Translations under genes and position numbers: made by a program | Shown: in pieces, positions 1-1,749 of the stretch | Layout: the number at the start of each line of letters is the position of its first letter | How positions within the stretch are numbered: position 1 is the stretch's first letter | The notes under the pieces: generated by a model | What the model saw: only the letters and a program-made list of their open reading frames with translations | What the model was told of the DNA's origin: nothing | Databases searched by the model: none | From: Candidatus Heimdallarchaeota archaeon | GTDB taxonomy: Archaea > Asgardarchaeota > Heimdallarchaeia > Heimdallarchaeales > Heimdallarchaeaceae | Length of the DNA: 64,000 nucleotides | Direction of reading: 5' to 3' | Assembly (NCBI GenBank): GCA_030603365.1 | Contig: JAUVXV010000004.1 | Coordinates: 1 to 64,000 of the forward strand

Positions 1-667
1 GGGGCACCCGACTGTTTAATAAAAACATAGCTAACTGCAAGGGCGAAAGCCTTAGTACAGTTAGTGAATCCTGGCCGGTGCTGGTGATTGAAACCTGGGT
101 TCAACCAGGCTAAGACCCAGTAAACGCCGGAGCTAACTATGAGCTTCTTAAGGTAGGCAAATGCCTTGTCTGCTAATTACAGACGTCCATGAAGGGACCA
201 ACGAGGTGCCCACTGTCTCCACCCTAAGCCTACTGAACCCACAGTCCAGCGAACAGTCTGGAGCGCACCATCGGGAAGAGAAGACCCTGTGAAGCTTTAC
301 TGCTGTCAGGGGCTGTTGTATTGGTGTACATACATAGAATAGTCAGGAGACGTTAATACTATATTCTCCGGGATATGGAGTAGTCGAACTTGAAATACTG
401 ACTTTGTGCATTGGTACGACTTACCTCTCGCGAGGGGGACACCCCCTGCCTGGCAGTTTCACTGGGGCGGTAGCCTCTTGAAAAGATATCAAGAGGGCCC
501 AAAGCCGAGCTCAACCGGGACAGAAATCCGGTGAAGAGTGCAAGGGCAAAAGCTCGGTTGACTGTGAACTAACCAATAAGGTTCGCAGATGTTAACGCAG
601 GGCCTAGCGATCCTTCGCAGTGCCATTAGTAGGCGGCGGAGGTGGCAGAAAAGTTACTCCAGGGGTA

Positions 668-1031
668 ACTGCGCTTCTTGAAGTATCACGAATAGAAGTG
701 CTCTCTGTCTATAACGCTTATATTGATAATTCCATCTTTTCTGAGGCAGAATAGATTTAAAGTGAATTAAGCAAGGCTTCTGTCTTCTTCCAATGTTGTG
801 AGGAAAGAAAGTTTTCGCCATTTAAGGCTACAAAACTTGAGCAGAGTGAATCTAATTTCTGTCAATTAATCCATAAGATATAGTTAAATCCCTAGAGAAA
901 GATGGAGAGCCAAAATAAGCGTGAGGACTAAAAGATAGGTGAAGGATCAAGTAACTACCTAGTCGTAATACCAGGTGACAACTAAGATCCTAAAGCCGAT
1001 GTGTATATGTTGTGCGCAAGCGCAGCCCTGA
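668..1031 (+). other. 364-nt ORF-less 23S rRNA intron, BHB/BHL type, between the A2450 and A2451 equivalents
   Basis: Removal restores GGGGTA|ACAGAGTTGTC. Terminal stem CTGCGCTT/AAGCGCAG, 4-bp central helix GGGG(662-665)/CCCT(1026-1029), 3-nt bulges TAA and GAA; cutting after the 2nd nt of each bulge gives the exact exon. Confidence 0.85.
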
Positions 1032-1180
1032 ACAGAGTTGTCGTGGGTAAGAGTTCACATCGACCTCACGGCTTGCTACCTCGATGTCGGCTCTTCCTAG
1101 CTTGGTGGTGATTAAGCCGCCAAGAGTGGGGTTGTACGCCCATTAAAAGGGAACGTGAGCTGGGTTTAGACCGTTGTGAG

Positions 1181-1329
1181 ATGGATTTAAGCTGTAATGG
1201 AGTTAGGTAGAAGTATGAAAATGCTTCAACTCAACTCCATCCAAGTATGGTAAAGTTCTGGATAGTTGTAAACCCCGAAAGGGAATCCCTTCTACCAGCG
1301 CGGAATACTCGGGCTTAAATTCACGCAAA
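1181..1329 (+). other. 149-nt ORF-less 23S rRNA intron, BHB/BHL type, between the G2599 and A2600 equivalents (H93)
   Basis: Removal restores GTTGTGAG|ACAGGTTGG. 11-bp terminal stem TGGATTTAAGC/GCTTAAATTCA, central helix TGTG/CGCA, bulges AGA and AAA. Confidence 0.9.
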
Positions 1330-1749
1330 ACAGGTTGGATTCTATCTGATGGTGCTGACGGGTGATTGAGAGTAAAGTCTCCACAGTACGAGAGGAACAG
1401 GCGGCTGGGGCCTCTGGTGTACCGGTTGTCCTTACGGGCATCGCCGGGTAGCTAAGCCCTCGACGATAAGAGCGGAATGCATCTACGCTCGAAGCGTCTC
1501 TCGAAACGAATCGCCCACTCTGTATCACTACAAAGGGGCCTGGTGACAGTAACCTTCGGTACAGACGAGAGCGCGGAAAGAAGATCCGTTTGATAGAATT
1601 GGGGTGTACGCGTCGAGCTTCGGCGAGATGTTTAGCCCACAATCACTAATTGCTCAAGCGTAGTTAGGTAAAATAGAGATCGGTTCGTCAGATTCTAGGA
1701 GAGTTCTTGTCAGCTAATTTGAGTTTACAAGAAACTTTTTCCCAGATTA

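What the first reader, a model, noticed from the sequence alone, without database searches (positions are those of the whole stretch)
655..1040. BHB-type intron between A2450 and A2451 of the peptidyl-transferase centre, with a junction that also mimics a group I intron
Seen: a 364-nt AT-rich insertion whose ends form an 8-bp stem, a 4-bp helix and two 3-nt bulges. Cutting after the 2nd nt of each bulge regenerates the exon exactly (intron 668-1031). The outer exon helix starts only after a 2x2 loop, so the motif is relaxed (BHL-like). Shifted by one base (667-1030), the same insertion follows U2449, ends in G, forms a P1-like helix AGGGGT/GCTTCT with a U-G at the splice site, and has a GCAA-capped 7-bp hairpin just before the terminal G. 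Established: L2449 is a classic group I intron site, and BHB rRNA introns are best known from hyperthermophilic Thermoproteota. I could not find a convincing P7 guanosine-binding core. Inference: an endonuclease-spliced intron in an Asgard ribosome's catalytic centre, possibly a decayed group I intron taken over by protein-dependent BHB splicing.
Basis: partly seen in the sequence, partly recalled or inferred. Interest (0 to 1): 0.85.

Follow-up and report, generated by a model that had tools for sequence, protein, structure and literature searches.

The report
Asgard rRNA intron gripping both exons
The only large-subunit rRNA gene of this Heimdall-group Asgard archaeon is split at the ribosome's catalytic adenines by a protein-free, enzyme-cut intron of a known type, not a group I ribozyme; the new part is an internal hairpin that can pair with the rRNA on both sides of the cut and changes in step with it across Asgard lineages, as a built-in splicing clamp would.

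Summary
The 364-nt insertion is real. [quoted passage not shown] Only this register rebuilds the exon in all 39 Asgard introns compared, and all 17 family genomes with both flanks assembled carry it. Group I splicing is rejected: no RF00028 hit, and terminal G, U·G and GCAA hairpin are not conserved. The scan noted this intron family before on other DNA.

New here: a hairpin near the 3' end carries two short boxes (950-956, 976-983) complementary to the exons at -10 to -16 and +5 to +12. Their perfect complements occur nowhere else in this genome's 23S or 16S rRNA. The boxes recur at the same place in four other Asgard families and change with the exon (G-C/C-G/A-U at 2436; U-A/C-G at 2458). 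The window's second intron (1181-1329) has the same layout with other sequences; 34 control introns lack it.

Likely role (inferred): a clamp that opens a competing exon hairpin and holds the exon ends for cutting and ligation. No RNA data could be examined, a five-lineage swap test gives only p about 0.07, and some introns at this site lack the boxes.

The parts
1..667 (+). 23S rRNA exon upstream of the intron (ends ...G2448 U2449 A2450, E. coli numbering by my alignment); the gene continues on contig C8
   Evidence: RF02540; 141-nt overlap with C8
668..1031 (+). ORF-less BHB-type intron, 364 nt, between A2450 and A2451
662..668 (+). 5' strand of the central helix (GGGG) and 5' bulge (UAA); cut after 667
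1026..1032 (+). 3' strand of the central helix (CCCU) and 3' bulge (GAA); cut after 1031
669..676 (+). terminal intron stem, 5' strand
   Evidence: compensatory changes in 4 of 7 columns
1018..1025 (+). terminal intron stem, 3' strand
652..670 (+). competing local hairpin (652-659 with 663-670) that buries the 5' splice site; 652-658 is the target of box L
934..1001 (+). domain B: stalked hairpin whose internal loop carries the two exon-binding boxes
950..956 (+). box L (AGUAACU), complementary to exon 652-658 (2435-2441)
976..983 (+). box R (UGACAACU), complementary to exon 1036-1043 (2455-2462)
686..924 (+). domain A: nested structured region with conserved motifs of uncertain role (812-819, 837-844, 905-910)
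812..823 (+). tentative third box, able to pair with exon 639-652 with one bulged base
   Evidence: no compensatory change seen
1032..1180 (+). 23S exon between the two introns (A2451-G2599)
1181..1329 (+). second BHB intron, 149 nt, at G2599^A2600
1269..1288 (+). two-box hairpin of the second intron: 1269-1275 pairs with exon 1162-1168, and 1282-1288 with exon 1337-1343
1330..1669 (+). last 23S exon

Best explanation
An ORF-less archaeal BHB intron, present in every host-family genome where the site is assembled. It is removed from the pre-23S RNA by the two-subunit tRNA splicing endonuclease (cuts after 667 and 1031) and RtcB. It carries an internal hairpin that base-pairs with both exon flanks. 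In the precursor, the boxes take over exon 2435-2441 and 2455-2462. That opens the local hairpin burying the 5' splice site and keeps helices H74 and H89 from closing over the junction. It also makes a four-way junction next to the one reliable exon-exon pair (C2442-G2454), so the cut ends stay together as a broken stem-loop for ligation. Shown by sequence comparison: the junction, the BHB conservation, and the box complementarity and covariation. Inferred: splicing itself, that the pairing forms in vivo, and what it is for. My odds: BHB intron about 0.95; boxes pair with the exons about 0.75; the pairing serves splicing about 0.55.
For: Register: the group I register rebuilds a wrong exon in 2/21 family and 5/18 other introns, the +1 register in 1/21 and 8/18, the BHB register in none. 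Intron-less sister families have the rebuilt exon. Single 23S copy here and in two closed family genomes. EndA alpha plus beta-like subunit and RtcB are present. Boxes: GUAACU is in 21/21 family introns, and the only Watson-Crick complements of GUAACU and ACAACU in 4.5 kb of host rRNA lie at -16 and just past the 3' junction. An unbiased scan for conserved helices ranks both box-exon helices directly behind the local hairpin and the terminal stem. Across five families (32 introns), columns 2437-2440 and 2456-2460 pair in every sequence; 2458 is U-A in 26 and C-G in 6; 2436 is G-C, C-G, A-U or G·U in 28 of 32. Box R starts 43-58 nt from the 3' end in all. 12 of 21 ORF-less introns beat shuffles at p<0.05 and the best register is +5 or +6 in 19 of 21, against 2 of 34 controls at p about 0.05. 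The second intron repeats the layout at -13/+8. Blocking the box targets removes the local hairpin and raises the terminal stem in 19 of 20 folding runs.
Against: No RNA reads could be examined. The lineage-level exon swap gives 8-10 of 120 permutations at or above the observed score (p about 0.07-0.08). Boxes in other families were located with a pattern that favours the match. A 30-nt intron at the same site has no room for boxes, and the Thorarchaeia-like endonuclease introns keep at most box L. Crenarchaeal introns with equally weak exon arms have no boxes. Even with the targets blocked, the energy model favours a slipped 5-bp central helix (about 0.38) over the BHB register (about 0.02). 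Box R of the second intron has only 5 pairs in half the homologues.
Confidence: 0.55

Rival explanations
1. Plain ORF-less BHB intron, the remnant of a homing-endonuclease intron. The boxes are conserved for an internal reason (protein binding or tertiary fold of the excised circle) or are relics, and do not pair with the exons.
For: LAGLIDADG introns occupy the same site in two other families, and there the box-like sequences lie inside the reading frame. Part of each box (GGU/ACU) can pair within the hairpin. Some introns at this site have no boxes. The swap test is not significant.
Against: The covarying bases lie in the loop and do not pair with each other. They follow the exon in every family but one at 2436 and in all at 2458, and most departures in the core columns are G·U. 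An unrelated intron at 2599 has boxes that match its own exons.
Confidence: 0.22
2. The boxes do pair with the exons but serve after or apart from splicing: the excised circle chaperones folding of the peptidyl-transferase centre, presents 2443-2453 to a modifying enzyme, or recognises intron-less rRNA for re-insertion.
For: The pairing works equally on ligated rRNA. Domain A carries further motifs complementary to nearby rRNA (639-652; 2508-2515, the best partner in the whole rRNA). The intron is kept in all 17 family genomes without an endonuclease gene.
Against: The geometry is the reverse of an H/ACA pocket and there is no ACA box. CUGA after box R is not conserved and no box C was found. 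Rfam gives no guide RNA hit. The boxes start exactly where each exon-exon arm of the unspliced precursor ends.
Confidence: 0.18
3. A group I intron at L2449 (667-1030), active or decayed and taken over by EndA.
For: In this sequence: a U·G helix, a terminal G, a GCAA hairpin and one S-like stretch at 873-882. The terminal G is present in 20 of 21 family introns. Real group I introns occur in Asgard 23S genes, including the same order.
Against: No RF00028 match at the locus even at E 10. No conserved P7-type helix. This register would change A2450 in 7 of 39 introns, and there is no terminal G outside the family. Published archaeal group I sites do not include 2449 (PMC6125680).
Confidence: 0.04

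Closest known systems
ORF-less and remnant BHB introns of crenarchaeal 16S/23S rRNA genes (Jay and Inskeep 2015, PMC4496867; Kjems and Garrett 1991, title only, paper not held)
   Same: BHB junction, closing stem, location in conserved rRNA, no ORF, EndA/RtcB pathway.
   Different: Site 2450/2451 was not seen in the Thermoprotei searched (118 of 151 genomes matched the region). Asgard host, present throughout a family. The interior is conserved, whereas PMC4496867 reports folds not generally conserved within a locus. Exon-binding boxes were absent from 15 crenarchaeal introns tested.
LAGLIDADG-carrying BHB rRNA introns (Desulfurococcus mobilis 23S intron with I-DmoI; PMC3608112)
   Same: Same splice motif. 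Such introns (665-793 nt) occupy this very site in two other Asgard families and are the likely kind of ancestor.
   Different: No ORF here, no homing enzyme.
Group I introns (L2449 omega-type, from my own knowledge; archaeal IA3/IB4, PMC6125680)
   Same: Site one base away. Works alike only in that intron sequences pair with both exons (P1/P10 idea).
   Different: No catalytic core, no conserved terminal G or U·G. The boxes lie inside the 3' part of the intron and pair 5-16 nt away from the cuts.
H/ACA guide RNA pocket; group II EBS/IBS pairing (from my own knowledge)
   Same: Two short antisense strands on opposite sides of one hairpin loop bind two parts of a target.
   Different: Polarity is reversed relative to H/ACA, with no ACA box or K-turn. 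No group II domains.

Membership tests
Archaeal BHB intron | 4-bp central helix between two 3-nt bulges | tested here: met
   38 of 39 introns; GGGA/UCCC compensates in one. The energy model alone prefers a slipped helix.
Archaeal BHB intron | Cuts after the second bulge base rebuild the exon | tested here: met
   Only register valid in all 39; matches intron-less relatives
Archaeal BHB intron | Intron-side closing helix | tested here: met
   8 bp with compensatory changes
Archaeal BHB intron | Exon-side helix (strict BHB) | tested here: not met
   Two mismatches first, and position 2441/2455 unpaired in most: relaxed HBh'/BHL form
Archaeal BHB intron | Host has EndA and RtcB | tested here: met
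   Two EndA genes, one beta-like, and RtcB. Broad specificity of alpha-beta enzymes is from PMC6379350, which also names an exception.
Archaeal BHB intron | Excision, exon ligation and circular intron in RNA | not testable with these tools
Group I intron | Covariance-model match to the core | tested here: not met
   positive controls 59-115 bits
Group I intron | Conserved terminal G | tested here: not met
   20/21 in the family, 0/18 elsewhere
Group I intron | U·G pair at the 5' splice site in P1 | tested here: not met
   15/21 in the family, 2/18 elsewhere
Group I intron | P7 guanosine site | tested here: not met
   No conserved internal helix of that kind. A look-alike in L060 is explained by a simple stem.
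Group I intron | Match to subtype models (IA1, IB4); self-splicing | not testable with these tools
   Only RF00028 is available
Homing-endonuclease intron | LAGLIDADG ORF | tested here: not met
   No conserved ORF; no PF14528 hit at the locus
C/D or H/ACA guide RNA | Conserved boxes C/D, or pocket with ACA box in the right polarity | tested here: not met

The most novel reading that the evidence does not exclude
Asgard rRNA introns in the peptidyl-transferase centre carry an internal two-armed guide that captures both exons into a four-way junction and is needed for efficient EndA cutting or RtcB joining. This would be an RNA-assisted step in a pathway thought to read only the local BHB motif, used by unrelated introns at different sites.
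Probability: 0.45. Interest if true: 0.78.

Novelty: new variant of a known kind. Interest (0 to 1): 0.62.

Why it matters
BHB splicing is described as depending only on the junction motif, with the intron body as a passenger. An intron that reaches back to pair with both exons would explain how an essential single-copy 23S gene tolerates a large insertion between A2450 and A2451, where H74, H89 and a local hairpin all compete with the splice motif. It gives a direct mutate-and-rescue test. It would also be a ribozyme-free counterpart of the exon-binding guides of group I and II introns, in the archaea closest to eukaryotes. The intron alone is an ordinary kind at a site I found in no paper.

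Tried and rejected

Group I core: RF00028 negative. P/Q/R/S look-alikes were checked by eye and are explained by simple hairpins or are not conserved.

Origin as a duplicated piece of rRNA: a profile of 21 introns has no nhmmer hit in the spliced 23S or 16S, and no second copy in the genome.

Protein coding: no conserved ORF. C/D and H/ACA guide readings: boxes not conserved, wrong polarity.

My genome contigs pattern was too loose and mostly returned intron-less archaea. It served as a background sample: only a family member had the insertion, and two other apparent hits were chance matches.

The first automatic box picking mis-assigned several sequences and was redone with anchors. The third box (812-823) is not among the five best partners of that motif in rRNA, so it stays tentative.

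Kjems and Garrett 1991 and Tocchini-Valentini 2011 are not held, so I could not check whether they describe exon-binding elements.

Full report
Observation. The window starts inside an archaeal 23S rRNA gene. Its 5' part lies on contig C8, and there is no second copy in this genome. E. coli numbers are from my own alignment. From the window alone the junction is ambiguous by one base either way.

Host and distribution. A genome of the same order is titled Ca. Heimdallarchaeota, and the 23S tree places the window's family beside it with starred support. The family includes two closed genomes of 3.1 and 3.3 Mb, the sizes given for Ca. Heimdallarchaeum (PMC8813620); that identification is an inference. 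All 17 family genomes with both flanks assembled carry the insertion, 335-423 nt long, and a metagenome copy is 288 nt. The three sister families lack it and show the rebuilt exon; G2448 occurs in two of them, so it is not caused by the intron. Introns at the same bond occur in five other Asgard families, from 30 to 793 nt, the long ones with a LAGLIDADG gene. None was seen in the Thermoprotei searched. In about 110 randomly drawn archaeal 23S loci only one family member had it.

BHB, not group I. Over 39 distinct introns the 4-bp central helix holds in 38, and the terminal stem shows compensatory changes. The group I register would alter A2450 in 7 introns and the +1 register would alter A2451 in 9; the BHB register fits all. 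The terminal G is missing in one family member and all 18 outside. The U·G pair becomes U-A in 6 of 21, and the GCAA hairpin is not conserved. RF00028 finds nothing at the locus, while true group I introns in Asgard score 59-115 bits. The genome encodes a catalytic and a beta-like EndA subunit and RtcB. The exon-side arm is weak: two mismatches, C2442-G2454, then a mismatch in most sequences. The motif is therefore of the relaxed kind that alpha-beta enzymes usually cut (PMC6379350). Splicing itself was not observed.

The interior. There is no conserved ORF and no similarity to rRNA. The terminal stem closes three arms: a large nested domain A, a stalked hairpin B and a small hairpin. The most conserved 6-mer, GUAACU (21 of 21), and ACAACU face each other across the internal loop of B. 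Their only Watson-Crick complements in the host's 23S and 16S lie 16 nt before and 4 nt after the junction. An unbiased search for conserved helices in the family alignment returns these two intron-exon helices right after the local hairpin and the terminal stem.

Covariation. Introns at this site in four other families have the same two boxes, box R starting 43-58 nt from the 3' end. Where the exon has C2436 the box has G, where A it has U, and where G it has C or U. One sequence of the A group and the Hermod-like family mismatch. Where the exon has C2458 the box has G (6 of 6), and where U it has A (26 of 26). Nine core columns pair in all 32 sequences, and 469 of 512 cells pair overall. These sequences are related, and the boxes outside the family were found with a pattern. 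Swapping exons among five lineage representatives gives 8-10 of 120 permutations at or above the observed score, which is suggestive only.

Replication at a second site, and controls. The window's second BHB intron (1181-1329) has a hairpin whose loop strands complement its own exons, each target unique in the rRNA. An intron at that site in a distant family has the same boxes in a different part of its body. In both window introns the boxes begin symmetrically where the exon-exon arm ends (-10/+5 and -13/+8), which gives a four-way junction. A test built on this geometry is passed at p<0.05 by 12 of 21 ORF-less 2450 introns and 3 of 7 2599 introns. Among controls, 1 of 19 introns in the H89 loop and 1 of 15 crenarchaeal introns reach p about 0.05.

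Mechanism (inferred). In folding runs a hairpin between 652-659 and 663-670 buries the 5' splice site (probability above 0.5 in 7 of 10 homologues; 0.99 here). Blocking the box targets abolishes it and raises the terminal stem here from 0.005 to 0.35-0.55, and to above 0.95 in 11 of 20 runs. The central helix stays in a slipped register in the model, so the enzyme would have to select the BHB form; two homologues weaken the slipped register. Box duplexes (-6.8 and -8.8 kcal/mol) are weaker than H74 and H89 (-11.8 and -13.1), so the mature helices could displace the excised intron. After cutting, the boxes would hold both exon ends as a broken stem-loop for RtcB. Against a strict requirement: a 30-nt intron at this site and crenarchaeal introns with weak arms have no boxes.

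Comparison and verdict. BHB rRNA introns with and without homing endonucleases are well known in Thermoproteota (PMC4496867, PMC3608112). Archaeal group I introns are known at other sites (PMC6125680). I found no paper on this site, on Asgard rRNA introns, or on exon-binding elements inside BHB introns, but the key papers of the 1990s were not available. The scan had already noted this intron family and site in other genomes, and had noted exon-complementary loops in DPANN 16S introns; I did not test the latter. The intron is a new member of a known kind. The covarying two-box hairpin makes it a new variant, with good comparative support and no experimental support. Interest 0.62.

Noticed in passing
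window 1181-1329: Second BHB intron at G2599^A2600, present in only part of the genus and in one distant family (L240). Crenarchaeal introns nearby sit at 2601 instead.
   Followed up: yes
window 665: G2448 instead of the usual A in the peptidyl-transferase region; common in Asgard 23S with or without the intron, rare in other archaea sampled.
   Followed up: partly
L030-L034, L036, L037, L040-L044, L047, L211, L213-L215 (H89 loop): BHB introns of 35-470 nt at 2477 in the sister families and other Asgard groups. Those of L030-L032 have a conserved, highly structured interior.
   Followed up: partly
L203, L204, L205: An extra 32-33-nt insertion at 2440^2441 leaves a 10-nt micro-exon before the 2450 intron and splits the target of box L.
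   Followed up: partly
L181-L185: Full-length group I introns (59-115 bits) in five Asgard genomes, next to or in 23S genes where checked, one in the same order as the window. Asgard hosts are not in the table of PMC6125680.
   Followed up: no
L196, L197, L199 against L198: 145-148-nt ORF-less introns share their ends with a 665-nt LAGLIDADG intron in the same family and keep the box-like sequences, which looks like ORF loss caught in progress.
   Followed up: partly
window 905-912: The invariant AGAGCC motif of domain A has its best rRNA partner at 2508-2515, close to the junction, but it also pairs internally with 700-705.
   Followed up: partly
G000 C8 and C14: The 16S gene (C8:10098-11577) has no intron and lies about 8 kb from the 23S gene; many tRNA genes carry introns.
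   Followed up: no
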